A stretch of DNA of 64,000 nucleotides from an uncultured Gammaproteobacteria bacterium (GCA_963765545.1 CAVXWW010000004.1:1667923-1731922), one strand, 5' to 3'. Numbered from the stretch's first letter, positions 4,662 to 23,321 are shown. The notes: generated from the letters alone by a model not told the origin. Made by a program: numbers and translations.

Positions 4662-6860
<2,199 letters not shown>

Positions 6861-6890
6861 TCAATATGCGTATTAAAAACAGGGTGCCGC

Positions 6891-8573
<1,683 letters not shown>

Positions 8574-8660
8574 TCACTCAGCCCCCGTAGGGAATGAAAT
8601 CGACGGGTGCGAGTCCTGCGAAAAGATGGGAAGTCAGGCTACCAGAAAGCCGCAGCCAGC

Positions 8661-10022
8661 TCAATCGAAAGCAGTGGTGATGTTGCGCTCCCAACACGGC
8701 TGCCAGAGGTCGTCTCCCGCCACCGCGGCAGTCACCAGGCGGGTCGAATCGCACAGCCAGAGGTCGCCCACGGCCAGCAGCTCCCCATCAAGTGATAGCA
8801 GCGGTACCCGATCGCGCCACCAGGGAGGTATATCGCTCTCCTGCAGGAGTTTCTTCAGGCTGGCACTGCCGGCCCTGCCCCTGGGCCGGCAACGCTCGCC
8901 GCCCAGCCGCCAGGTAATCTCCAGCTGTTCCCCGGGGGCCAACCTGAGCCCCTCCCCGGGCGCGGGCGCCAGCCACAAACGTCCACCATCGGGCAATGCA
9001 AGGCTTTCGCCAATCGCCAGGGACAGCGAGTGATCCCCGGGGGCGCCCCCCTCAATACCGGGCAGCAGGTAGAGCCCATCACGAAAGCGCTGCAGGACGT
9101 AGGCGCTGCAGTGCAGTCGCGGCTTGCCGGAGGCGGCTGCATCTCCGAGCTGGCGCAGGAACTCGTCCAGGGCGGCCCGGTCCGGGGCCGGGAGGTCCGC
9201 CGCGCGCAGCCAGTGCCGCAGTGCCATAGCCGCCTCCCCGGGCCCACCGGAACTCAGCTGGGAAAGTGCAATTCCCGGATCGCCCATGACACTGTATACC
9301 GTTGGCGGCGCCGGCACCGCGCGGGCCAACTGCGCGGCAGCATCACCTATATGGGCACTGGCCCGAACCACAGTCTGGCGATACCCCGGCCAGCGCGCGG
9401 CAACCAGCGGCAAGATCTCTTTACGCAGGTAGTTACGGTCCATCGCCGTATCGCTGTTACTGGGGTCCTCTACACAGGACAACCCGCGTTGACTGGCGCA
9501 GGCCTCAAGCCGCGAGCGGGGCTGCTGCAGTAGCGGGCGCACCAGGCTTCCGCGCCCCAGGGGCCTGGTTACGGGCATTGCCGCCAGGCCCTGCACCCCG
9601 GCTCCGCGCAGCAGGCGCAGCAGGAATGTTTCAACCTGATCATCCGCATGATGCCCCAGAAACAGGACTTCCCCTGCCTGCAATTGTTGTTCAAACAAGC
9701 CGTAACGGGCCTCGCGGGCCGCATCCTCCAGGCCGCGCCCGGCAGCCGTCACCTCTGCCGCCAGACAAAGCAGCGGAACCTGCAGGCCCCGGCACAGGCC
9801 TTCACAGTGTTGCTGCCACTTGTCGGCATCAGCCTGTAGTGAGTGGTTCACGTGGATAGCCACCAGCGGCGGCGCCGCATTGTGCTGGCACCAGTCGCAC
9901 AGCAACTGCAGCAGGACGGAGGAATCGACACCCCCACTCAGACCCACGTGCCAGCGCGGAGCCTCCAGCAATGTCTCGAGCAGGGGATCCAGCGCCCGGT
10001 GAGTCAACAGCGCGTCAGCCAT
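8661..10022 (-). CDS. tilS: tRNA(Ile)-lysidine synthetase
   Basis: 453 aa. PP-loop SGGVDSS. Sits between accA and pyrG, as in Pseudomonas. Confidence 0.9.
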   Translation of the reverse strand: MADALLTHRALDPLLETLLEAPRWHVGLSGGVDSSVLLQLLCDWCQHNAAPPLVAIHVNHSLQADADKWQQHCEGLCRGLQVPLLCLAAEVTAAGRGLEDAAREARYGLFEQQLQAGEVLFLGHHADDQVETFLLRLLRGAGVQGLAAMPVTRPLGRGSLVRPLLQQPRSRLEACASQRGLSCVEDPSNSDTAMDRNYLRKEILPLVAARWPGYRQTVVRASAHIGDAAAQLARAVPAPPTVYSVMGDPGIALSQLSSGGPGEAAMALRHWLRAADLPAPDRAALDEFLRQLGDAAASGKPRLHCSAYVLQRFRDGLYLLPGIEGGAPGDHSLSLAIGESLALPDGGRLWLAPAPGEGLRLAPGEQLEITWRLGGERCRPRGRAGSASLKKLLQESDIPPWWRDRVPLLSLDGELLAVGDLWLCDSTRLVTAAVAGDDLWQPCWERNITTAFD

Positions 10023-14932: not shown

Positions 14933-15063
14933 ATTTCATCACCTTATTGCGCGTTTGTCTGTGTGGGGAGTTTACCCCAATGCGAGGCGGCATGGCCCCC
15001 TGTGGACGCGGACCATGCCAGCCCCTATCATCATCGGCTGACCCCTGGCAGGTACAGATTAAA

Positions 15064-17163
15064 ATGCGTATGAGAACCGTCATCACCCTGTGGCTGCTAG
15101 CCAGCCTGGGGGGCTGCTCCGAGTCGCAGGAACCCATGACCGTTACAGTCTCGCAGCGCCCCTCCGGCAACCTGCTGCCGGTTAACAAGGAAGTCCTCAC
15201 CTTTCGGGCAGCGCCGAATGCAGACCGCAATGCCTACTTCGGCGATCTTCATGTACACACGGGATATTCATTTGACGCCTATGTTTTTGGCAATACGACC
15301 CTGCCTGCGGATGCCTACCGGTACGCCAGGGGTGAGGCACTGAACCACCCCAGCGGCTACAGCATTCAGCTGCAACAGCCGCTGGACTTTTATGCCGTGA
15401 CAGACCATGCAATGTTTATGGGACTGGTGCGCGCTGCCGCCGATACCAGCACCCGATTCTCCCAGTACCCGGTGGCCGAACCACTGCACAACATCAATGC
15501 CTGGTACAACATGAACGATTTAAGCCTGGCAAAAAGAGCCCGCAATTTTGCCGCTTTCCTATCCAACAGCATAAATGAGCTACTCGAGGGTGCTATCGAC
15601 CCACAGGTCGTCGAGGCCGTGACGCGGTCGGCCTGGCACGACACGGTGCTCGCCGCCGATGACGCCTATGTTCCCGGGACCTTCACCACTTTTGCCGCGT
15701 TCGAATACACCACCTCCACCGACGACATGGGTAACCTGCACCGCAACGTTATCTTTAAAGATACCGACCGCCTGCCGGCGGTGCCCTTTTCACGCTTCAA
15801 TTCGCAGAATCCCGAAGGCCTTTGGGCATGGATGGATGAGCTGCGTAGTGACGGTATCGAGAGCCTGGCGATCCCCCATAACTCCAACGGCTCCAACGGC
15901 CAGATGTTCAAACTGACAGACTGGGCAGGTGACCCGATGGACGATGACTATTCCACCGTGCGCCTGCGCAACGAACCACTGGTAGAGGTCACCCAGGTAA
16001 AGGGCACTTCCGACACTCACCCGCTGCTGTCAAAGAATGATGAGTGGGCCGATTTTGAAATCGCCCCCTACCGGGTTGCAACCCAACTCCACAGCGAACC
16101 GAGCGGGGGCTACGTGCGCGATGCCTACCTGCGCGGCCTGCAATTGGGCGGGGCTGGCGCCGTTAACCCTTACAAGTTCGGACTGATCGGCGCCAGCGAT
16201 ACCCACAACAGCGCCACCTCGGTGGAGGAGCGCAACTACTTCTCGAAGGTCGGGATGCTGGATGGAACGGCGGAACTACGCGGTTCAATTCCCGCGTCTT
16301 TTGTCGCCGGCACCCTACTGAAATGGCGCGCACCGGCACTCCTGAAACAGGTCGATGGCAGGGATTACATGGTCGGCGGGGCCTTTGAATTCTGGTCTGC
16401 CTCCGGGCTGGCCGGCGTGTGGGCAGAGGAAAATACCCGTGAGGCAATCTATCGCGCCTTCCGGCGCAAGGAAACCTTTGCGACCAGCGGGCCCCGCATG
16501 AAAGTGCGTTTTTTCGCAGGCTATAATTTTGAACCTGAACTGCTGGATAGCCCCCAGATGGCGGCAACTGCCTACCGCACAGGCGTAACCATGGGCAGCG
16601 ACCTGGAGGCTGAGGCAGCACGGGAGCCCCGCTTCCTGGTCTGGGCAACGGCAGACCCGGCTGGCACCGCATTGCAACGGGTGCAGGTGATCAAGGGATA
16701 CCTGGAAGGCGGTGAGCACCGCGAACGAATCTATGATGTGGCCTGTTCGGACGGGGCAGTACCTGACCCTGCCACAGGGCGTTGCCCCGATAACGGAGCG
16801 CGGGTCGATTTGACCGACTGTTCCCTGACCGCTGGTGTCGGCGCCCCGGAACTGAAAGCCCTGTGGCGGGATCCGGATTTTTCCCCTGACCAGGAGGCAT
16901 TCTATTATGTGCGGGTGCTGGAAAACCCAAGCTGCCGCTGGTCTACCTGGGATGCCATACGTGCCGGTGTGGCGCCGCGCAGTGACCTGCACAGCACCAT
17001 CCAGGAAAGAGCCTGGTCATCACCGATCTGGTATCGTCCCGGACAGGAAGGTCCCCGACAGGAAGGTCCCGGACAGGAAAGTCCCGGACAGGAAGGTCCC
17101 GGAGACGTCGATTCTGATCGAAAAGTAAAACTCACCCCGGCTGAGATAGCCGGGGCTGCCTGA
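15064..17163 (+). CDS. DUF3604 family protein, predicted lipoprotein
   Basis: Start MRMRTVITLWLLASLGGCSE (lipobox) at ATG 15064. YFGDLHVHTGYSFDAY metal-binding-like N-terminal motif typical of DUF3604. The track start at 14947 is judged an over-extension. Confidence 0.8.
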   Translation: MRMRTVITLWLLASLGGCSESQEPMTVTVSQRPSGNLLPVNKEVLTFRAAPNADRNAYFGDLHVHTGYSFDAYVFGNTTLPADAYRYARGEALNHPSGYSIQLQQPLDFYAVTDHAMFMGLVRAAADTSTRFSQYPVAEPLHNINAWYNMNDLSLAKRARNFAAFLSNSINELLEGAIDPQVVEAVTRSAWHDTVLAADDAYVPGTFTTFAAFEYTTSTDDMGNLHRNVIFKDTDRLPAVPFSRFNSQNPEGLWAWMDELRSDGIESLAIPHNSNGSNGQMFKLTDWAGDPMDDDYSTVRLRNEPLVEVTQVKGTSDTHPLLSKNDEWADFEIAPYRVATQLHSEPSGGYVRDAYLRGLQLGGAGAVNPYKFGLIGASDTHNSATSVEERNYFSKVGMLDGTAELRGSIPASFVAGTLLKWRAPALLKQVDGRDYMVGGAFEFWSASGLAGVWAEENTREAIYRAFRRKETFATSGPRMKVRFFAGYNFEPELLDSPQMAATAYRTGVTMGSDLEAEAAREPRFLVWATADPAGTALQRVQVIKGYLEGGEHRERIYDVACSDGAVPDPATGRCPDNGARVDLTDCSLTAGVGAPELKALWRDPDFSPDQEAFYYVRVLENPSCRWSTWDAIRAGVAPRSDLHSTIQERAWSSPIWYRPGQEGPRQEGPGQESPGQEGPGDVDSDRKVKLTPAEIAGAA
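17038..17103 (+). repeat. 15-bp in-frame tandem repeat (about 4.4 copies) encoding PGQEG-PRQEG-PGQES-PGQEG-PG in the DUF3604 C-terminus
   Basis: CCCGGACAGGAAGGT units at 17038, 17053, 17068 and 17083, with 1-2 substitutions. Confidence 0.9.
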
Positions 17164-17165
17164 CA

Positions 17166-17642
17166 CTAGAGAGGCGGTATACGCAGGTTCTGGCCCACTT
17201 TGATCTTGTCGGGATCTGTCAGCATGGGCTGATTCGCCTCGAAGATAACCATATACTTGCTCGCCGCCCCATAGTGTTCCTGGGCGATTTTGCTAAGGGT
17301 ATCGCCAGATTTGACTGTGTAAAAAGTCGATTCTGCGGCGACGGGCGCTGCCTCACCCTCTGGGGCGTCTACCTGCATCTGGCAATCCACCTGGGCGATG
17401 CCAAACTGGTTACCCGCGCAAAGTACAATCTTTTCCATGGCTTCCTGGCTGGGTGCTGAACCCGTCAGCACGGCGGTCTCGCCATTAACCTTGACGCCTA
17501 CCTGTTCGCCATCGACATCCAGCTGAGCCACCATGCGGCTGATATTCTGCTCGCGCAACTCATTGACCCGGGCGGGCGGCACATCGACAGTCTCGGTTAC
17601 CTTGTCTTCTCCGGCGTCAGACAAAAAATCAAATAGTCCCAT
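17166..17642 (-). CDS. kbp: BON+LysM domain protein (potassium-binding protein Kbp/YgaU homolog)
   Basis: MGLFDFLSDAGEDK N-terminus, a BON segment, and the C-terminal LysM FYTVKSGDTLSKIAQEHYG...IFEANQPML. Closely parallels E. coli YgaU as I recall it. Confidence 0.85.
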   Translation of the reverse strand: MGLFDFLSDAGEDKVTETVDVPPARVNELREQNISRMVAQLDVDGEQVGVKVNGETAVLTGSAPSQEAMEKIVLCAGNQFGIAQVDCQMQVDAPEGEAAPVAAESTFYTVKSGDTLSKIAQEHYGAASKYMVIFEANQPMLTDPDKIKVGQNLRIPPL

Positions 17643-17857
17643 TATTCAGTGCTCTCCTGATTAAATATTCACAATAGCGCGGGGCCGCTGTGAGCCATGA
17701 CCCCTGCGCTTGATTAAATGACACACCATGTGTGGCGCCCCCACACTATAGTCCAGTATTTGCGGGATGCAACGGATAGCGAAACCAGGAATGGCGACAC
17801 GATCACCCCGCTTGTATCGTAACCCCACAGGTATCACTAACCAAAAGGTCAGACATA

Positions 17858-18313
17858 GTGAACAAGGTGCTATTTTCCATTATCAATCCGGTGGTCAAGT
17901 GCGTACTGCGCTCACCTCTTCACCGACTCATGAGTCACAACACCGTGCTTCTGGAGTTCACAGGCCGAAAAAGCGGAAGAGCTTACTCAACGCCTGTGGG
18001 CTATTACGCTACAGGCCTGGAGGTACGTTGCTTTACCGATAGGAACAACCAGTGGTGGCGCAATCTGGCCGGCGTGAAGGAGATCGGTTTAACAGTGAAG
18101 GGGCAGAGACTCACCGGCAAACCCAGCGTGGATGCGAGCGGCGGGCCCGACACTCGCAAGGCACTAAAAGAACTGCTACTGGCAAGCCCAAGAGATGCTT
18201 CCTATGCCGGAGTCAGCTTCTACCCGACTGGAGCGCCTGTCGCCGGGGATATCGAGAAAGCCATCTCTGGGATGATTTATATATCGGTGGAAATACTGGA
18301 TGGGGCCGCTTAA
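17858..18313 (+). CDS. PNPOx-like split-barrel protein (DUF385 / F420H2-dependent quinone reductase-like family)
   Basis: 151 aa. PLHRLMSHNTVLLEFTGRKSGRAYSTPVGY...WWRNL pattern. Family assignment is from memory only. Confidence 0.5.
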   Translation: MNKVLFSIINPVVKCVLRSPLHRLMSHNTVLLEFTGRKSGRAYSTPVGYYATGLEVRCFTDRNNQWWRNLAGVKEIGLTVKGQRLTGKPSVDASGGPDTRKALKELLLASPRDASYAGVSFYPTGAPVAGDIEKAISGMIYISVEILDGAA

Positions 18314-18437
18314 AGGCGCACCGCGCTGCTTGACCCAGCCTATGGTCTATCGTGACCACAGGATTTATATTACGATGCCTGAGAGACTCCTCACCGGCTC
18401 TACCACCCCCCCTGGGTGAAGGGGGAGAGAACTGCGA

Positions 18438-19878
18438 ATGTTTAGCGATGCGAAACTCTGGCTGATCGGCAACGAACCCGTTATCAGCGCCATTGTAGGC
18501 CTTGTAACACTATCAGCAGCTGTCTGGGGCCTGATGCGGTTGCGTTACCTGGAATCCGAAGGAGTTGCGGGGCGTGCGGCCGGCGAGACGCTTCAACCAA
18601 ATACCTCAGAAGATATAAACCCCGACACGCCCCCACCAAGACTGCGCGGCACTCCCAGGAAACTATTTAATCTTGGCATCACCCAAAAATCGCAAATAGA
18701 GGAGATTGTTGCCTCTCGTACTATCAACGTAACCGTTATTGCAATGCTGTCGCTAAATGTGGTGTGGATCATAGCTGGCTTGATGGTTAATGGCTTTGTC
18801 TACTTTACCATTTTGAACTGCGTAGTATTCCTGGCGGGGCTCCTGATTCTAATTCTTCAGGCAGGGGGTCGCAGCGATACAGCCCGCTGGATACTGCTGG
18901 TGGCAACCTACAGCTACTGGTCCAGCATACAGTTAAGCGTTGGAAAAATGTGGGGAGTGGAATACTTCCTTGTCATTCTCTGCCTGCTACCGATACTGCT
19001 TTTTAAACGCTATGAGTATCTTCAAAAAAGTGCCGCGGTAGCATTACTACTAGGATTTATGGCGCTCCAGCTACTGCTTTCTCGAGTCTATAATAGCGGC
19101 CTGCTTAACCTCGACGAACCTCTCTTAAAGATCGGTTACAGCGTTAACATGGCTGTTCTATGCGTTATGGTAATCGCCATAGTCACATACTACTCCAGGT
19201 TCTCGCTGGACAGTTTTCAAGCGCTTGAAACCCAAAAAGACAAAGCCGACAAGCTGGTGAAATCAGTGTTTCCAAAGGATGTTATCCAACAGATAAGGGA
19301 GAACTCGAAAACGGTTGCCGCCTACCGAGACGAAGCCGCCGTAATATTTGTAACGCTAGCGGGATTTGAGGACCTATATCACAGAATCACCGCCAGACAA
19401 CTGGTAGAAATGATGGGCGCAATATTTCTGAAAGTTGACGAGTTGCTGGAAAAGCACAGGATCGAAAAAATCAACATGTTGGGCACCCACTATGTGGCTG
19501 CCTCCGGAGTGTTCGAAGAAGGTGCAGCCAATTATGCGGCGGTCGCTCGATTTGCCCTGGATGTGACCGCTGAGGTCGCTAAGTTCGGTGAGGCAATGAA
19601 TCACAACTTCAGCGTGCGCGCAGGTGTATCAGTCGGACAGGTCGTCAGCGGTGTTATTGGGGACGCCAGACCCTGCTTCGATATATGGGGAGAGACGGTT
19701 GAACTTGCAGCAAGCTATGCAGGACGCTGCTGTCAAAAACACTGTGGTAGTGAGTGAACGCGCGTACTGGCGACTAAGAGATCGATTTGAATTTGCGGAA
19801 ATGACGGGTCATGAAAGCAGTTACATCCTGCTAAGAGAGCGCAGTGACAATATTATGAGCACAAATAGCTCACTATGA
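18438..19878 (+). pseudogene. membrane-anchored class III cyclase-homology-domain protein, paralog 1, interrupted by a 1-nt insertion near 19716 (or a sequencing error / programmed frameshift)
   Basis: Frame 1 (18438-19757) ends WGETVELAAS-YAGRCCQKHCGSE*. The +1 frame continues MQDAAVKNTVVVSERAYWRLRDRFEFAEMTGHESSYILL, which is collinear with paralog 2 (SMSDTAMDNSIVVNESAFWRLKDMFEFAEMPGESGSYLLL). The restored frame stops at 19876-19878, overlapping the ATG of paralog 2 (ATGA). Confidence 0.7.
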
Positions 19879-21260
19879 TATCCGCCGTTACCCATTGGCT
19901 TTCCATTAACGAAGCCTTCATAAGCTCCGTTGTAGGCTTGGGAAGCCTTGTGGCGCTAGCATGGGGCCTGATCAAAATCATCTACCAGAGTCCGTCCAGG
20001 TCAATAGTGCGAGCTCGTTCCGCATCTGAGAAGTCCCATTTTTTTCGTCACATTCCAATGACACTTTTTATCCCAATTCTTAATCTGGGGATTGGCCATC
20101 ACATCAATATTGAGGACAGAATCGCGGCCAGGACCGTAAATTTTTCCGCAATAGGATTGATAATCTTCAGCGTCGCGTTGATGCTCTTCACTGTCGTCAA
20201 CCCCGACGTTAAACCTCTAGGAATAATCCATGGAATATGCTTTCTCGCCTGCCTGCTCATATTGCGCCTGCAGGCGGAAGGAAAGCTTGGCATCGCGCGA
20301 TGGCTGTTTTTGTTTATCGTCATGTTGGAATGGACAGGTACGCAGATCTATATCGGCCCCTGGCACGGAAACGAGTATGTACTAGCTGCAATCGTGGTAT
20401 TCCCCATACTGCTTTTCAAGGGCGGTGAACTACAGCAACGTTTACTTGCCCTTATTCTGATAGCGGCATTCGCCCTGCTCACAATTATCTCGAGTATCTT
20501 TATCGATATTAAGCCCATAGAGCTCCACGCTGGAATGCACCTTATAGGTTACTACCTGGTTATGGTTAGCGTTACACTACTCGTTTTCTTTGTAGTCAAT
20601 TTTTATGTCAATTTTTCGGTTGCGAGTTTCAGTGAACTGGAACTTGAGCACATGCGAACAGAGGAGCTTGTAAATTCGATATTCCCTGAGGAGGTCCTGC
20701 GCCACATCAATGCCGAGAATCATCTGGTAGCAGAATCCCATGAAGAAGCCACGGTAATTTTTGTTACAGTCGGCGGCTTCGAAAGCCTCTACCAAAGAAT
20801 ATCCGCAGTCCAGCTCGTGGAATTGATGAGTGAGATTTTCGTAAAATTTGATGAGCTGCTGGTTTTGCATGGAGTAGAAAAAATCAACACCTTGGGCACA
20901 CACTATGTCGGGGCAAGCGGTGTATTCAACAGGAACACACCTGAACATGCAGCAGTTGCTCGTTTCGCTCTCGATATTCTGAAGGCGGTCCAGGCCTTCA
21001 GTGAAAAGCTCAACCATCGATTTACACTGCGAGCGGGTATATCAACCGGCCAGGTCATCAGCGGTGTCATTGGAAGCGCTCACCCCTGCTTTGATATCTG
21101 GGGGGAAACCGTGGAACTGGCGAACTCCATGAGCGACACGGCCATGGATAACTCCATAGTCGTTAACGAATCCGCCTTTTGGCGCCTCAAAGACATGTTC
21201 GAATTTGCCGAAATGCCAGGAGAAAGTGGCAGCTATCTGCTTCTACAGGCTAAAGGGTGA
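19875..21260 (+). CDS. membrane-anchored class III cyclase-homology-domain protein, paralog 2 (catalytic residues substituted)
   Basis: 461 aa. N-terminal TM helix, then a multi-TM block, then a linker (LVNSIFPEEVLRHI), then the CHD: ATVIFVTVGGFE, KINTLGTHYVGASG, FDIWGETVELANSMSD. Confidence 0.85.
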   Translation: MISAVTHWLSINEAFISSVVGLGSLVALAWGLIKIIYQSPSRSIVRARSASEKSHFFRHIPMTLFIPILNLGIGHHINIEDRIAARTVNFSAIGLIIFSVALMLFTVVNPDVKPLGIIHGICFLACLLILRLQAEGKLGIARWLFLFIVMLEWTGTQIYIGPWHGNEYVLAAIVVFPILLFKGGELQQRLLALILIAAFALLTIISSIFIDIKPIELHAGMHLIGYYLVMVSVTLLVFFVVNFYVNFSVASFSELELEHMRTEELVNSIFPEEVLRHINAENHLVAESHEEATVIFVTVGGFESLYQRISAVQLVELMSEIFVKFDELLVLHGVEKINTLGTHYVGASGVFNRNTPEHAAVARFALDILKAVQAFSEKLNHRFTLRAGISTGQVISGVIGSAHPCFDIWGETVELANSMSDTAMDNSIVVNESAFWRLKDMFEFAEMPGESGSYLLLQAKG

Positions 21261-21361
21261 ACAGGCGCTGAATCTACGCCAGCAGGGCCGGACCTGGCGG
21301 ATAAGGATATTGATTTTCGACTTGGTACGGTGATGAGTGCTGGCGTTTTCAGGGAACAAAC

Positions 21362-22576
21362 TCACCAGTACGTGCGTAAACCTGTAGTCAGGCCCCAGCC
21401 CTTGTATTCACCGCCATCGTTCGCGTCATCCTCCATCTTCGCGTACTGCAGCCCCGTCTGCCACTTGAGCTTCTGACCATAGATATACACGTTAAGGCCC
21501 AGGTAGAACTCGTTATAGCGATTGCCTTTACCGCTCACGACCTCCCGTTCATAGCGACCCAGCTTGAGACCGTTGTCATCAGAGCTGTCAAGGTAGGTGT
21601 AACGCAACACCACCTGCTGTTGCTCGCTGAAGGAGTAGAACGGCATCAGGGCGACACCCCACAGGTTGCTCTGCCTGTCCAGGCCATGCCCCGCGGACAC
21701 ATCAGTGGACAAGCCCCAGCCCCCGCTTTGCCACTGAGTCGCCAGGGTCACTGTATGACGAAAATCTGGCGTGGCATTGCGTTCGTAGTCGTCGTCATCG
21801 TCCGTCTGGTCGTCGTCGTCCTTGCTGTTGTAAACGTAGTCGACCCGAACCAGCGCTTCATCCAACGCCATTTTCCGGGCAAAATTATGTCCTAGCGACA
21901 GCAGCGTGAGATAGCCAACATTGCTGAGGCCGATTTCTTCGCTGTCATCGCCCGAAAAAAAGCCGGCCCGGGAGGTCCAGTGCTCGCCGGGGTTGCCACT
22001 AACGTGCACGCCAGAAAAGTACTCATCTGTGGCCCAAAGGTTATTGGTCAGGTTATTGCGTTGCAGCGTCAACAGCTTCTTGGATGAGGTGGCGCCGTCC
22101 AGGGTAAAGCCCACAGACTGCTTCAGAAGCTTGAGGTCCCAGGCCGAACCTGGCGAGTACCCGATATAGGCATCGGTCAGCCGGTTATACTGGTCGTCAA
22201 ACTGGTTATTGAGATCAAGATCGGCCTCCAGCTGGAGGGTATAGCCACCGCCAAACTCGGATTTAAAACCGAAACGAAAACGCCGCCAACGCATATCGCT
22301 GGCATCGTTGTCCGCGCCCTCCGGGACATCGTCCTCGTCTGCACTAAACCAATAGGCATCTGCCTGCAGGCGTCCGCTCAGAGCAAAGTAGCTCTCTTCA
22401 TCCTCGCTTTCCCATAGCTTTGCATGGCTCCATACACGATCGAACATGGCACTGGATGCTTCATCCCCCTGGGCCATGGTATTTCCCTTGGACAGGCACA
22501 GCGCCAGGCAAGCGGAGAATGCTAACTTACGAATATCGTGGTCGCCCGAGCCCGTTTTCAATAACAAGCTATACAA
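21362..22576 (-). CDS. OprO/OprP-family (phosphate-selective porin O/P fold) outer-membrane porin, unusually acidic
   Basis: 404 aa with a signal-like N-terminus. Beta-barrel pattern ending GLRTYW. RFRFGFKSEF and KLKWQTGLQY segments are typical of porin O/P. Confidence 0.75.
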   Translation of the reverse strand: MYSLLLKTGSGDHDIRKLAFSACLALCLSKGNTMAQGDEASSAMFDRVWSHAKLWESEDEESYFALSGRLQADAYWFSADEDDVPEGADNDASDMRWRRFRFGFKSEFGGGYTLQLEADLDLNNQFDDQYNRLTDAYIGYSPGSAWDLKLLKQSVGFTLDGATSSKKLLTLQRNNLTNNLWATDEYFSGVHVSGNPGEHWTSRAGFFSGDDSEEIGLSNVGYLTLLSLGHNFARKMALDEALVRVDYVYNSKDDDDQTDDDDDYERNATPDFRHTVTLATQWQSGGWGLSTDVSAGHGLDRQSNLWGVALMPFYSFSEQQQVVLRYTYLDSSDDNGLKLGRYEREVVSGKGNRYNEFYLGLNVYIYGQKLKWQTGLQYAKMEDDANDGGEYKGWGLTTGLRTYW

Positions 22577-22737: not shown

Positions 22738-23321
22738 CTACCGCGGATTAAACGGCTGCGTAGCCAGTTTACCTGAATCGACAACAATCACCGAGGACTC
22801 GGGCACGGGCTCCCACATCTTGCTCATCTGGGACAGTGGCTCGCAAACGATGGCACGTGCGTCATCCGCAATGCCTCGAAGGCTCGAACTCACCTCTTTG
22901 AGCGCGGCGATATCGCCACTGTGATAGAGGCTCCGGGACTGCTGTTCGCTAGAGTAACGCACGGCGAACAAACGTTGGCCGTCGCTAAGGCCTAAAGTCA
23001 TTTGTAGCGGGTACTGTATGCCATTGCGGTGACCGACTACTTCAACGAACCCGGTCATTCTCTCCAGGGCCGCAATCGGGTCTGACTCCAGGCCAAAAGT
23101 GAGCGCAAGGTTGAACATCAGCTCGGAGTCAGTGGTGCCTTCGATCAACGGAAACAGCGTCGCATCAACGGCGAACGCCAGTTCGCGCCGAAGCCGTCGC
23201 CATTGGTAGTTTCTACGCCCTCTTTCGAGTTGAGGCTCTGATGGATGAGTGAATTTTCCGGCTTGAGAATCAATTCATCCATGTTTAGAGGTGATCCTAC
23301 GTAACCAATCCAACGGCACAT
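22738..23321 (-). pseudogene. class II (Ntn, YafJ-like) glutamine amidotransferase remnant with internal deletion and frameshift
   Basis: From ATG 23321: MCRWIGYVGSPLNMDELILKPENSLIHQSLNSKEGVETTNGDGFG. At about 23187 it abuts, in another frame, RELAFAVDATLFPLIEGTTDSELMFNLALTFGL... (track ORF 22738-23148). The central roughly 100 codons of the family are absent. Confidence 0.75.

What the first reader, a model, noticed from the sequence alone, without database searches (positions are those of the whole stretch)
18438..21260. Tandem membrane-anchored cyclase-homology proteins with a conserved, fully substituted active site (pseudo-cyclase pair)
Two adjacent paralogs share one architecture: an N-terminal TM helix, a spacer, a multi-TM block, a short helical linker (LVKSVFPKDVIQQI / LVNSIFPEEVLRHI), and a class III cyclase homology domain. 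I aligned them by eye to canonical class III motifs (FADIVGFT; K-x-x-G-D-x-Y-M; Y-D-V-W-G-D-x-V-N-x-A-S-R-M-E).
- Metal Asp 1 is Thr (IFVTLAGFE / IFVTVGGFE).
- The substrate Lys is Asn and metal Asp 2 is Thr (NMLGTHYV / NTLGTHYV).
- The transition-state Asn is Glu in both paralogs (WGETVELA). The Arg is Ser in paralog 2 (LANSMSD). In paralog 1 that position lies at or beyond the frameshift and is also not Arg.
- Only the second specificity Asp (FDIW) is retained.

The same substitution set occurs in both copies, while the fold-defining residues are kept. That pattern argues for selection on a non-catalytic function (ligand sensing, scaffolding or hetero-dimeric signalling) rather than random decay. 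I know of no characterised bacterial system built from a tandem pair of membrane pseudo-cyclases. The pair also sits in the most compositionally deviant DNA of the window.
Basis: partly seen in the sequence, partly recalled or inferred. Interest (0 to 1): 0.72.

Follow-up and report, generated by a model that had tools for sequence, protein, structure and literature searches.

The report
Paired membrane pseudo-cyclases, conserved dead site
Two adjacent, translationally overlapping genes encode membrane proteins built like the mycobacterial/mammalian adenylyl cyclases. They have lost every residue needed to make cAMP yet keep a remodelled pocket under strong selection, so they are probably a small, undescribed family of non-catalytic "pseudo-cyclase" signalling proteins of marine Halieaceae.

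Summary

- **The genes.** P1 (18438-19878; 479 aa once a 1-nt insertion near 19710 is removed) and P2 (19875-21260; 461 aa) overlap by ATGA. They are 43% identical.
- **Architecture.** Both have one N-terminal TM helix, a basic spacer, 6 TM helices, a helical transducer and a class III cyclase homology domain (PF00211, E 6e-30 and 4e-37). The best structural match is full-length Rv1625c/Cya.
- **Active site.** Alignments to AC8/AC9 C1 and C2 give metal Asp1→Thr, Lys→Asn, metal Asp2→Thr, Asn→Glu and Arg→Ser/Ala. A 7-residue deletion also removes the C-terminal Lys hairpin. Only the FDIWG Asp and the RxGxxxG Arg remain.
- **Family.** About 60 homologues (roughly 10 clusters at 50% identity) share this substitution set. 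Named members are almost all Halieaceae. The substitute residues are ≥92% conserved and are encoded by all synonymous codons, so they are selected, not decayed.
- **Pairing.** Tandem pairs with conserved gene order occur in four genomes, in two orthologous pair types and in unrelated neighbourhoods.
- **Origin.** The sister group is a large, canonical, catalytically intact 6TM cyclase family.
- **The frameshift.** An independent assembly has an intact 479-aa P1.

Function is inferred: a probably heterodimeric non-catalytic receptor whose remodelled interfacial pockets bind a ligand or a partner. I rate it a new variant of a known kind.

The parts
18421..18429 (+). Shine-Dalgarno-like GGGGGAGAG, 8 nt upstream of the P1 ATG
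   Evidence: Read directly from the sequence. The consensus scans found no sigma-70 promoter in the 124-nt intergenic region and no terminator. There is no Rfam match in 17000-22000.
18438..19878 (+). P1, the upstream pseudo-cyclase. It is 479 aa after removal of one inserted base; as it stands the ORF stops at 19757 (439 aa).
   Evidence: ORF list. Repaired translation. 76% identical over 467 aa to the intact 479-aa homologue P0021. 43% identical to P2. PF00211 E 6.4e-30.
18480..18536 (+). P1 N-terminal TM helix (residues 15-33), in the family-specific conserved NEPxIS...WG segment
   Evidence: Hydropathy. Conserved only in the pseudo-cyclase family and absent from the canonical sisters.
18705..19187 (+). 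P1 six-helix TM block (residues about 90-250)
   Evidence: Hydropathy and alignment to P2 and to the family.
19254..19295 (+). P1 helical linker LVKSVFPKDVIQQI (residues 273-286), the cyclase transducer-type element before the CHD
   Evidence: Sequence. Aligns with the LLxxxLPxxIA element of the canonical 6TM cyclases.
19326..19875 (+). P1 cyclase homology domain. Catalytic-position residues are T306, N346, T350, D415, E422 and A426 (repaired numbering).
   Evidence: PF00211 match at residues 297-425. Motifs.
19707..19713 (+). Site of the +1 frameshift in P1 (GCA-G-CAA; one extra base)
   Evidence: Frame comparison. The repaired protein reads VELAQAMQDAA, matching the family's VELAxSMxDxA with no length change. 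In the Logan contig of run ERR15964224 the distance from P1 start to P2 start is 1436 nt against 1437 here, and the upstream gene there is an intact 479 aa.
19875..19878 (+). ATGA overlap: the P2 start codon (19875-19877) overlaps the stop codon of repaired P1 (19876-19878)
   Evidence: Sequence. The same 4-nt overlap is seen in the Logan contig and in Ca. Litorirhabdus singularis (L001 genes 6577-8004 and 8001-9401).
19875..21260 (+). P2, the downstream pseudo-cyclase, 461 aa, intact
   Evidence: ORF. PF00211 E 3.6e-37. AF2 model with mean pLDDT 85.6. Foldseek top hit is full-length Rv1625c/Cya, 7yzk_A, E 6.6e-24 over 378 columns.
19911..19988 (+). P2 N-terminal TM helix (residues 13-38)
   Evidence: AF2 helix 13-38. 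Hydropathy. L9, E13, I16, V20, G21 and G31 are ≥93% conserved in the family.
19989..20108 (+). P2 basic spacer (residues 39-78), predicted cytoplasmic and the least conserved region
   Evidence: Mean conservation 0.34. pLDDT 56-77. Rich in Arg and Lys by direct reading.
20109..20609 (+). P2 six-helix TM block (residues 79-245), Rv1625c-like with weak MASE7 similarity
   Evidence: AF2 helices 79-108, 110-134, 138-160, 167-180, 186-209 and 219-269. The family profile aligns to Rv1625c 7yzi_A residues 72-431. The motifs RTxN, ARW, GxEY and PxLxF are shared with the canonical sisters.
20610..20720 (+). P2 helical domain and transducer element (residues 246-282, including LVNSIFPEEVLRHI)
   Evidence: AF2: continuous helix 219-269 plus helix 272-280. 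Alignment to the AC8 and AC9 juxtamembrane helices.
20721..21257 (+). P2 cyclase homology domain (residues 283-461). Substituted catalytic positions: T298 (20766-20768), N338 (20886-20888), T342 (20898-20900), E414 (21114-21116) and S418 (21126-21128). Retained: R386 and D407 (21093-21095). The C-terminal Lys hairpin is deleted.

Best explanation
P1 and P2 form a two-gene operon of paralogous membrane pseudo-cyclases. Each protein has an N-out TM helix, a cytoplasmic spacer, a six-helix Rv1625c/MASE7-like membrane domain, a helical transducer and a class III cyclase homology domain (CHD). They descend from a canonical 6TM adenylyl cyclase family.

The CHD has lost all six canonical catalytic elements: both metal Asp, the substrate Lys, the ribose Asn, the transition-state Arg and the hairpin Lys. 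It therefore cannot perform two-metal nucleotide cyclisation. The replacement residues (Thr, Asn, Thr, Glu and a small residue), together with about ten further cleft positions, are fixed under purifying selection. The cleft has been remodelled, not abandoned.

The most likely mode of action has three steps, all inferred. First, the two proteins are made in fixed ratio through the ATGA overlap and assemble head-to-tail into a P1·P2 heterodimer with 14 TM helices and two CHDs. That would be a two-gene counterpart of the mammalian pseudo-heterodimeric cyclase, but with two forskolin-site-like pseudo-sites and no active site. Second, the membrane domain receives a signal and passes it through the helical element to the CHD dimer, as proposed for Cya. 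Third, the output is not cNMP. It is either binding or release of a small ligand in the remodelled interfacial pockets (possibly purine-like, since the invariant FDIWG Asp is kept) or binding of a partner protein. This parallels the way degenerate GGDEF/EAL domains act as receptors.

Shown here: the architecture, the loss of catalytic residues, selection on the substitutes, the conserved pairing and the origin from canonical cyclases. Inferred: heterodimerisation, the direction of signal flow, and the nature of the ligand or output.
For: **Fold and architecture**
- PF00211 hits.
- AF2 model with pLDDT 85.6, showing 1+6 TM helices, a long helix and a CHD.
- Foldseek top hit is full-length Rv1625c/Cya. 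The family profile aligns to Rv1625c residues 72-431, E 4e-55.

**Catalytic loss**
- Alignments to AC8/AC9 C1 and C2.
- Residue roles as summarised in PMC4174876.
- Hairpin deletion.

**Selection**
- T298 92%, N338 95%, T342 93%, E414 95% and D407 100% conserved across sequences 33-76% identical.
- All four Thr codons and both Asn and Glu codons are used at these sites in 12 genes.
- 15 family-specific switches lie in or next to the catalytic motifs, and the CHD is the most conserved region (0.68 against 0.48 for the 6TM block).

**Pairing**
- 4-nt ATGA overlap.
- Tandem pairs in the window, Ca. Litorirhabdus singularis, a Congregibacter MAG and a Logan contig.
- Upstream-to-upstream identities are 51-54% and downstream-to-downstream 53-57%, against 31-44% between upstream and downstream genes. 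Flanking genes are unrelated.

**Origin**
- The nearest non-family relatives are 400-436-aa 6TM cyclases with intact D/K/D/N/R/K and the same TM motifs.

**P1 is intact elsewhere**.

**Receptor role of such TM domains:** Cya structure paper 10.1101/2021.12.01.470738; PMC4821796 and PMC12505454.
Against: - No biochemical or genetic data exist.
- Heterodimerisation was not modelled, because no multimer prediction was available.
- Solo family members exist (L002, L004/L005), so homodimers must work for some clades.
- No conserved neighbouring gene points to an output partner.
- The window's clade lacks even the Arg at +2 (SMRD) that most of the family has, so the pocket chemistry is not uniform.
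- Thr hydroxyls plus Glu414 could in principle still hold a metal, so some catalysis cannot be excluded from sequence alone.
- P1 is frameshifted in this particular assembly.
Confidence: 0.6

Rival explanations
1. Cryptic enzyme. The remodelled cleft (Thr/Thr, Asn, Asp, Glu, and in most members an Arg shifted by two positions) catalyses a reaction by a non-canonical mechanism. This could be nucleotide cyclisation with an unusual metal geometry or a different nucleotidyl-transfer or hydrolysis reaction.
For: - The substitute residues are polar, nearly invariant and under purifying selection. That is what an active site looks like.
- D407, R386 and the glycine-rich loops are kept.
- The CHD is the best conserved region.
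- Thr hydroxyls coordinate Mg2+ in other nucleotide-binding folds (general knowledge).
Against: - Both carboxylates of the two-metal centre, the two phosphate-binding basic residues (Arg, and the hairpin Lys by deletion) and the substrate Lys are all gone at once.
- The pocket becomes more acidic, which is poor for binding a triphosphate.
- No class III CHD lacking both metal Asp was found described as active in the literature searched.
- The window's own clade also lacks the shifted Arg.
Confidence: 0.12
2. Dominant-negative or regulatory subunit. P1 and/or P2 heterodimerise with a catalytically competent class III cyclase encoded elsewhere in the genome. Because they contribute neither half of an active site, they switch that cyclase off in a signal-dependent way.
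For: - A class III active site needs the metal Asp from one subunit and Lys/Asn/Arg from the other (PMC4174876). A partner lacking both halves would therefore kill both sites of a mixed dimer.
- The family derives from, and still resembles, a canonical 6TM cyclase family.
- Pseudoenzymes commonly regulate active paralogues (general knowledge).
Against: - No canonical cyclase gene is present in the 64-kb window or next to the pair in any locus examined.
- The named canonical sisters come from other phyla (Acidobacteria, Deltaproteobacteria, Spirochaetes), not Halieaceae.
- The conserved two-gene module suggests the partners are each other.
- Strict conservation of the pocket residues is not needed merely to be inert.
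Confidence: 0.12
3. Decaying remnants. The pair is a horizontally acquired, low-GC island of dead cyclase genes on the way to loss, with no function.
For: - P1 carries a frameshift in this assembly.
- The pair is the lowest-GC DNA of the window, with GC3 0.54 against 0.67-0.72 in neighbouring genes.
- Relatives sit next to transposases in some loci and appear split in L010.
Against: - Full-length intact orthologues of both genes persist at 51-76% identity with fixed order.
- The substitute residues are maintained through synonymous codon turnover.
- The CHD is the most conserved region.
- An independent assembly has P1 intact.
- P1 orthologues are no more diverged than P2 orthologues: 76% against 71% for the closest homologues, and 54% against 57% to Litorirhabdus.
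Confidence: 0.03
4. Two independent homodimeric pseudo-cyclase receptors that are merely co-transcribed. The architecture and non-catalytic role are as in the best explanation, but there is no P1·P2 complex.
For: - Solo family members exist, so homodimers must be viable.
- Rv1625c is a homodimer.
- P1 and P2 carry nearly the same pocket residues, so the window pair shows no obvious complementarity.
Against: - Gene order and overlapping stop/start codons are conserved in two separate pair lineages and in different neighbourhoods.
- In the second pair type the upstream partner is consistently different: Lys retained and EALEAA in place of ETVELA. This suggests division of labour.
Confidence: 0.2

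Closest known systems
Mycobacterium tuberculosis Rv1625c / Cya (class IIIa 6TM adenylyl cyclase; PDB 7yzk, 7yzi)
   Same: Same overall build: a six-helix membrane domain, TM6 extended into a helical domain, then a CHD. It is the top Foldseek hit over the whole chain, and the family profile aligns to residues 72-431. Its TM domain is proposed to act as a receptor.
   Different: Cya has all the catalytic residues (Asp256, Asp300, Lys296, Asp365, Asn372, Arg376) and makes cAMP as a homodimer. P1 and P2 keep only the Asp365 equivalent, lack the C-terminal Lys hairpin, carry an extra conserved N-terminal TM helix plus spacer, and occur as a gene pair.
Canonical bacterial 6TM (MASE7-type) class III cyclases, e.g. 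P0087-P0106
   Same: These are the closest sequence relatives outside the family (286-336 bits against the family profile). They share the TM motifs RxxN, ARW/GRF, GxEY/F and PxLxF and the transducer element.
   Different: They are 400-436 aa, lack the N-terminal helix and spacer, and have intact D/K/D/N/R and the VKG hairpin. The group is large and taxonomically broad (2981 hits at E ≤ 1e-40), whereas the pseudo-cyclase family comprises about 10 clusters at 50% identity.
Mammalian membrane adenylyl cyclases (AC1-9), C1·C2 pseudo-heterodimers with a forskolin pseudo-site
   Same: They are the best sequence hits in the PDB (AC8 C2, 94 bits, extending into TM12). The parallel is two different 6TM-CHD halves forming one complex with a degenerate, ligand-binding interfacial site. 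Mammalian ACs are thought to derive from a bacterial monomer by duplication and fusion (PMC9552081). The P1/P2 operon looks like the duplicated but unfused state.
   Different: In mammalian ACs the catalytic residues are split in a complementary way (Asp in C1; Lys/Asn/Arg in C2), which gives one active site. Here both partners lack both halves, so both sites are pseudo-sites. There are two polypeptides rather than one, and there is no G-protein context.
Heterodimeric rhodopsin-guanylyl cyclases of chytrid fungi (RGC/NeoR)
   Same: Two separately encoded membrane-sensor-CHD proteins that function only as a heterodimer (PMC8815786, PMC12264004).
   Different: They are eukaryotic, use a rhodopsin sensor, and the heterodimer is an active guanylyl cyclase.
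Degenerate GGDEF/EAL domain receptors of bacteria (general knowledge, not tested here)
   Same: The concept is the same: a nucleotide-cyclase-type fold that has lost catalysis but is retained under selection as a ligand-binding or signal-relay module.
   Different: The fold subfamily and the ligand (c-di-GMP) are different. No ligand is known for P1 or P2.

Membership tests
Class III nucleotidyl cyclase homology domain (PF00211 fold) | [quoted passage not shown] | tested here: met
   PF00211 at 104.5 and 128.2 bits against a cut-off of 21.9. The AF2 CHD superposes on Rv1625c, AC and GC catalytic domains with target-normalised TM-scores of 0.8-0.9.
Catalytically competent class III cyclase | Two metal-binding Asp (Rv1625c Asp256 and Asp300) | tested here: not met
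   Thr298 and Thr342 in P2; Thr306 and Thr350 in P1. Family-wide Thr 92-93%.
Catalytically competent class III cyclase | Substrate-specifying pair (Lys296 and Asp365 in an adenylyl cyclase) | tested here: not met
   Lys is replaced by Asn (95% of the family). The Asp is retained and invariant.
Catalytically competent class III cyclase | Transition-state Asn and Arg (Asn372 and Arg376) | tested here: not met
   Asn is replaced by Glu (95%). Arg is replaced by Ser in P2, Ala in repaired P1, and Ser/Ala/Thr across the family.
Catalytically competent class III cyclase | C-terminal beta-hairpin Lys (xVKGxG) that contacts the phosphates. The residue's role is from general knowledge of mammalian AC structures. 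| tested here: not met
   A 7-residue deletion relative to the canonical sisters. The PF00211 match ends at position about 163 of 183, against 182 in the sisters.
Catalytically competent class III cyclase | Measured cNMP synthesis | not testable with these tools
   Needs an enzyme assay.
Rv1625c/Cya-type (class IIIa) membrane cyclase architecture | Six TM helices, TM6 continuing into a helical/transducer domain, and a C-terminal CHD | tested here: met
   AF2 helices. Foldseek 7yzk_A at E 6.6e-24. Profile alignment to 7yzi_A residues 72-431. There is one extra N-terminal TM helix.
MASE7 membrane sensor domain (PF20967) | Score above Pfam's gathering threshold (26.2 bits) | tested here: inconclusive
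   No hit for P1 or P2 at E ≤ 1. Family member P0034 scores 25.0 bits and canonical sister P0088 scores 19.7 bits, both below the cut-off. Several canonical relatives carry a precomputed PF20967 hit.
Complementary pseudo-heterodimeric cyclase (mammalian AC C1·C2, sGC alpha·beta type) | One partner supplies the metal Asp and the other supplies Lys/Asn/Arg, giving one active and one degenerate site | tested here: not met
   Both partners lack both sets, in the window pair and in the three other pairs examined.
Complementary pseudo-heterodimeric cyclase (mammalian AC C1·C2, sGC alpha·beta type) | Physical heterodimer of the two CHD proteins | not testable with these tools
   There is only indirect support: the ATGA overlap and the conserved gene order.
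Pseudoenzyme (a non-catalytic homologue kept under selection) | Fold retained, catalytic residues lost, and purifying selection on the protein | tested here: met
   Intact orthologues exist in several genomes.

The most novel reading that the evidence does not exclude
P1·P2 is the founding example of a bacterial heteromeric pseudo-cyclase receptor: a two-gene, 14-TM counterpart of the mammalian 12-TM adenylyl cyclase. In it both interfacial sites have been converted into conserved binding pockets for a new ligand, or into a new active site, so that a cyclase chassis signals without making a cyclic nucleotide.
Probability: 0.3. Interest if true: 0.75.

Novelty: new variant of a known kind. Interest (0 to 1): 0.55.

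Why it matters
Class III cyclase domains are annotated automatically as "adenylate/guanylate cyclase". The sources do this for members of this family too. Here that label is almost certainly wrong, so counts of cAMP-producing enzymes in Halieaceae genomes are inflated.

The family is also a natural experiment on the Rv1625c/mammalian cyclase chassis. The membrane "receptor" domain, the transducer helix and the CHD dimer are all retained and conserved although catalysis is gone. This implies that the chassis can deliver an output other than cNMP. The pair may also show the duplicated-but-unfused stage postulated for the origin of mammalian cyclases.

One host, Ca. Litorirhabdus singularis IMCC14734, carries an isolate strain designation. 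If it is available in culture, genetics would be feasible there.

The family is small and taxonomically narrow, and no function has been shown, so the immediate impact is moderate.

Tried and rejected
- **NCBIfam** gave no family-level match; only a 18-bit hit to TIGR03903.
- **Regulatory signals.** There is no Rfam family in 17000-22000. No terminator was found, and promoter matches did not exceed the shuffled controls. The operon boundaries therefore rest on gene geometry alone.
- **Other cyclase genes.** No other CHD gene is present in the window.
- **Gene neighbourhoods** were examined in six loci. No gene recurs next to the pair, so guilt-by-association gives nothing.
- **Organism.** The cluster look-up returned no accession or organism name for the window's proteins. 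The organism is inferred only from its relatives (Halieaceae).
- **Literature.** Searches for pseudo-cyclases, degenerate CHDs and MASE7 found no description of such a family. The held library is incomplete, so this is absence of evidence only.
- **First tree.** The first NJ tree was distorted by unrelated ORFs. It was redone on cleaned, trimmed data. It remains a distance tree without support values.
- **Distribution outside Halieaceae.** I considered this and largely rejected it. The "Cryomorphaceae" locus L010 is 76% identical at the DNA level to a Halioglobus gene and has GC about 0.50, so it is probably mis-binned. L004 shows a GC gradient from 0.35 to 0.59 beside IS elements, so it is either chimeric or a transfer.


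Full report
**What is there**

The + strand carries two adjacent ORFs at exactly the reported coordinates: 18438..19757 (439 aa) and 19875..21260 (461 aa; P2). A second frame (19624..19878) continues the homology of the first ORF to P2.

The break is a single extra base in GCA-G-CAA at about 19710. Removing it gives a 479-aa protein (P1r) that reads ...FDIWGETVELAQAMQDAAVKNTVVVSERAYWRL.... This matches the family pattern without any length change. P1r is 76% identical to an intact 479-aa metagenomic homologue, P0021, and 43% identical to P2 over the full length.

The repaired frame ends in TGA at 19876-19878 and overlaps the ATG of P2 at 19875, giving an ATGA junction.

An independent Logan assembly of run ERR15964224 contains an identical P2. 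It is preceded by an intact 479-aa gene with the same 4-nt overlap, and the spacing from P1 start to P2 start is 1436 nt against 1437 nt here. So the frameshift is either an assembly error or a very recent lesion. P1 is a real gene.

A good Shine-Dalgarno-like GGGGGAGAG lies 8 nt upstream of P1. No promoter, terminator or Rfam element was detected.

**Architecture**

- Both proteins match PF00211 strongly (E 6.4e-30 and 3.6e-37).
- An AF2 model of P2 built on a 54-sequence family alignment has mean pLDDT 85.6. It shows an N-terminal helix (13-38), a poorly conserved basic spacer, six TM helices (79-245), a long helix from TM6 into the cytoplasm followed by a short helix (the LVNSIFPEEVLRHI element), and a CHD.
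- The distribution of Arg and Lys (direct reading) fits an N-out, C-in topology with seven TM helices.
- The best structural match in the PDB is full-length Rv1625c/Cya (7yzk_A, E 6.6e-24, 378 columns).
- The family profile aligns to Rv1625c residues 72-431 (E 4e-55).
- The best sequence matches are the C2 halves of mammalian AC8, AC9 and AC5, with the alignment running into the last TM helices.
- Pfam's MASE7 model matches relatives only below threshold.

**The active site**

HMMER alignments to the solved AC8 and AC9 C1 and C2 domains fix the residue equivalences. The roles of these residues are those summarised for Rv1625c and mammalian ACs in PMC4174876.

| Canonical element | P2 | P1 (repaired) |
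|---|---|---|
| Metal Asp1 | Thr298 | Thr306 |
| Substrate Lys | Asn338 | Asn346 |
| Metal Asp2 | Thr342 | Thr350 |
| Ribose Asn | Glu414 | Glu422 |
| Transition-state Arg | Ser418 | Ala426 |

A 7-residue deletion also removes the C-terminal hairpin that carries the xVKGxG Lys of canonical relatives. Accordingly, the PF00211 match stops near position 163 of 183 in the family but reaches 182 in canonical sisters.

Two elements are retained: the FDIWG Asp (invariant in 64 of 64 sequences) and the RxGxxxG Arg.

**A family, not a one-off**

A search of 5.8 billion proteins found about 65 full-length homologues. The named ones come from Halieaceae (IMCC14734, Halioglobus, Congregibacter).

Across the family the same set recurs: Thr 92%, Asn 95%, Thr 93%, Glu 95%, and Ser/Ala/Thr at the Arg position. 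Most members have an Arg two residues later (SMRD), which the window's clade lacks.

An exhaustive profile search of 1.84 billion representatives shows roughly ten clusters above 430 bits. Scores then drop to 353 bits and below.

The next-best hits are mostly 400-436-aa 6TM cyclases. They have intact D/K/D/N/R/K and the same TM motifs (RxxN, ARW/GRF, GxEY/F, PxLxF), but no N-terminal helix or spacer. That sister group is large and taxonomically broad.

The pseudo-cyclases are thus a narrow offshoot of a canonical membrane cyclase family. The offshoot gained a conserved N-terminal TM helix (the NEPxIS...WG segment) and lost catalysis. Among 185,579 species-representative genomes only six loci were found, five of them in Halieaceae. 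The sixth, labelled Cryomorphaceae, is probably mis-binned.

**Selection**

- Fifteen positions are fixed differently in the family and in the canonical sisters. All of them lie in the CHD, and most fall in or immediately beside the catalytic motifs: D298T, K338N, I340L, D342T, M345V, N414E, S417N, E420R, G423A, G426N, Q429V and P311A.
- The CHD is the most conserved region (mean 0.68). The N-terminal helix scores 0.59, the transducer 0.57, the 6TM block 0.48 and the spacer 0.34.
- In 12 genes for which DNA is available, Thr298 and Thr342 are each encoded by all four Thr codons, Asn338 by both Asn codons and Glu414 by both Glu codons. The amino acids are therefore held by purifying selection.

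This rules out simple decay. It points to a remodelled, functional cleft.

**The pairing**

Tandem pairs occur in the window, in Ca. Litorirhabdus singularis IMCC14734 (4-nt overlap), in a Congregibacter MAG and in a Logan contig.

Identities and a cleaned NJ tree show two pair types:

| Pair type | Loci | Upstream vs upstream | Downstream vs downstream | Upstream vs downstream |
|---|---|---|---|---|
| A | window + Litorirhabdus | 54% | 57% | 41-44% |
| B | L003 + L009 | 51% | 53% | 34-35% |

Gene order has therefore been kept since before these genera diverged, while the flanking genes differ completely between loci:

- F420H2-quinone-reductase-like gene and porin in the window.
- Luciferase-like gene and MerR in Litorirhabdus.
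- GGDEF-EAL and Rieske genes in L003.

In pair type B the upstream partner is consistently different: it keeps the Lys and has EALEAA.

Solo genes also exist.

The pair is the lowest-GC DNA of the window (0.46-0.49 against 0.59; GC3 0.54 against 0.67-0.72). In four of the five other loci measured the gene or pair is at or below both flanks. This is consistent with a self-contained, possibly mobile module.

**Mechanism (inferred)**

A class III active site is built across the dimer interface. The metal Asp come from one subunit and Lys/Asn/Arg from the other. Neither P1 nor P2 supplies either half, so no homo- or heterodimer of the two can form a canonical site.

The most economical reading is as follows:

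- The two proteins form a P1·P2 heterodimer. This is supported only indirectly, by the stop/start overlap and the conserved order.
- The heterodimer has two conserved pseudo-sites, analogous to the forskolin site of mammalian cyclases.
- It is coupled through the transducer helix to a membrane domain of the type proposed to be a receptor in Cya (also PMC4821796 and PMC12505454).
- The output would be ligand or partner binding rather than cNMP synthesis.

The invariant Asp407 together with Asn338 could still read a purine edge. The loss of all phosphate-binding basic residues argues against a triphosphate as the ligand. Both of these points are speculation.

The rivals cannot be excluded without experiments: a cryptic enzyme, a dominant-negative partner for a canonical cyclase, or two independent homodimers. 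Pure decay is essentially excluded.

**Comparison with known systems, and novelty**

The proteins work like, and are built like, Rv1625c/Cya and the halves of mammalian membrane cyclases. They nevertheless fail every catalytic membership test for a cyclase. They also fail the complementarity test for a C1·C2-type pseudo-heterodimer.

I found no description of a fully degenerate, conserved, paired bacterial CHD family in the literature available here. That library is incomplete.

I classify the finding as a new variant of a known kind: a pseudoenzyme offshoot of class IIIa membrane cyclases. Interest is moderate (0.55). The sequence-level case is solid, the evolutionary parallel to mammalian cyclases is attractive, and one host carries an isolate strain designation. 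Against that, the family is small and its function is unknown.

Noticed in passing
window 22738-23321 (- strand): Two short ORFs (58 aa, starting MCRWIGYVGSP..., and 136 aa) overlap by 4 nt in different frames. They look like the two ends of one broken gene. The N-terminus resembles a class II (Ntn, Cys2) glutamine amidotransferase, but that is from memory only. Pfam gave no hit at E ≤ 0.001. Together with the P1 frameshift, this may indicate indel errors in the assembly or real pseudogenes.
   Followed up: partly
window 17036-17103: A 15-nt tandem repeat (4.5 copies, 92% matches) encodes a GPGQE-like repeat in the C-terminal tail of the 738-aa DUF3604 protein at 14947-17163.
   Followed up: no
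P0086 (894 aa, from the representative search): A natural single-chain fusion of two 6TM-CHD modules from the canonical sister group. The first CHD has D/K/D/N/R. The second reads DTVVFASGLE, so its Asn and Arg are lost. This is a bacterial, mammalian-style 12-TM pseudo-heterodimeric cyclase. Its origin is unknown.
   Followed up: no
L002/L008, 6759-9278 (Halioglobus MAG chromosome OZ253569.1): The solo family member P0033 (425 aa) lacks the first ~23 residues relative to P2. It begins 10 nt after an ISL3-family transposase gene, which suggests that an IS insertion truncated it or removed an upstream partner.
   Followed up: no
L010, 2773-4151 (MAG labelled Cryomorphaceae): The family gene is split into two ORFs. 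It is 76% identical at the DNA level to the Halioglobus gene of L007, and the contig has GC about 0.50. The contig is probably mis-binned rather than a Bacteroidota copy.
   Followed up: partly
L004, whole locus (ENA contig_10426): GC rises from 0.35 to 0.59 across 14 kb. CHU_C-type (Bacteroidota-like) genes lie on the low-GC side, and rve and IS110 transposases lie just beyond the solo pseudo-cyclase gene. This is either a chimeric contig or a horizontal-transfer junction.
   Followed up: partly
window 21362-22576 (- strand): A porin O/P-like protein (PF07396, E 5e-14) carries an unusual Asp-rich insert (SKDDDDQTDDDDDYERN). It is convergent with the pair and conserved next to it in the Logan contig.
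   Followed up: no
Family alignment A1, subclade P0007/P0013/P0014/P0018/P0022/P0023/P0030: These solo-type members read NTLDTTYV. An Asp sits one position before the lost metal-Asp2 site (Gly→Asp). The rest of the family does not have this. Its significance is unknown.
   Followed up: no
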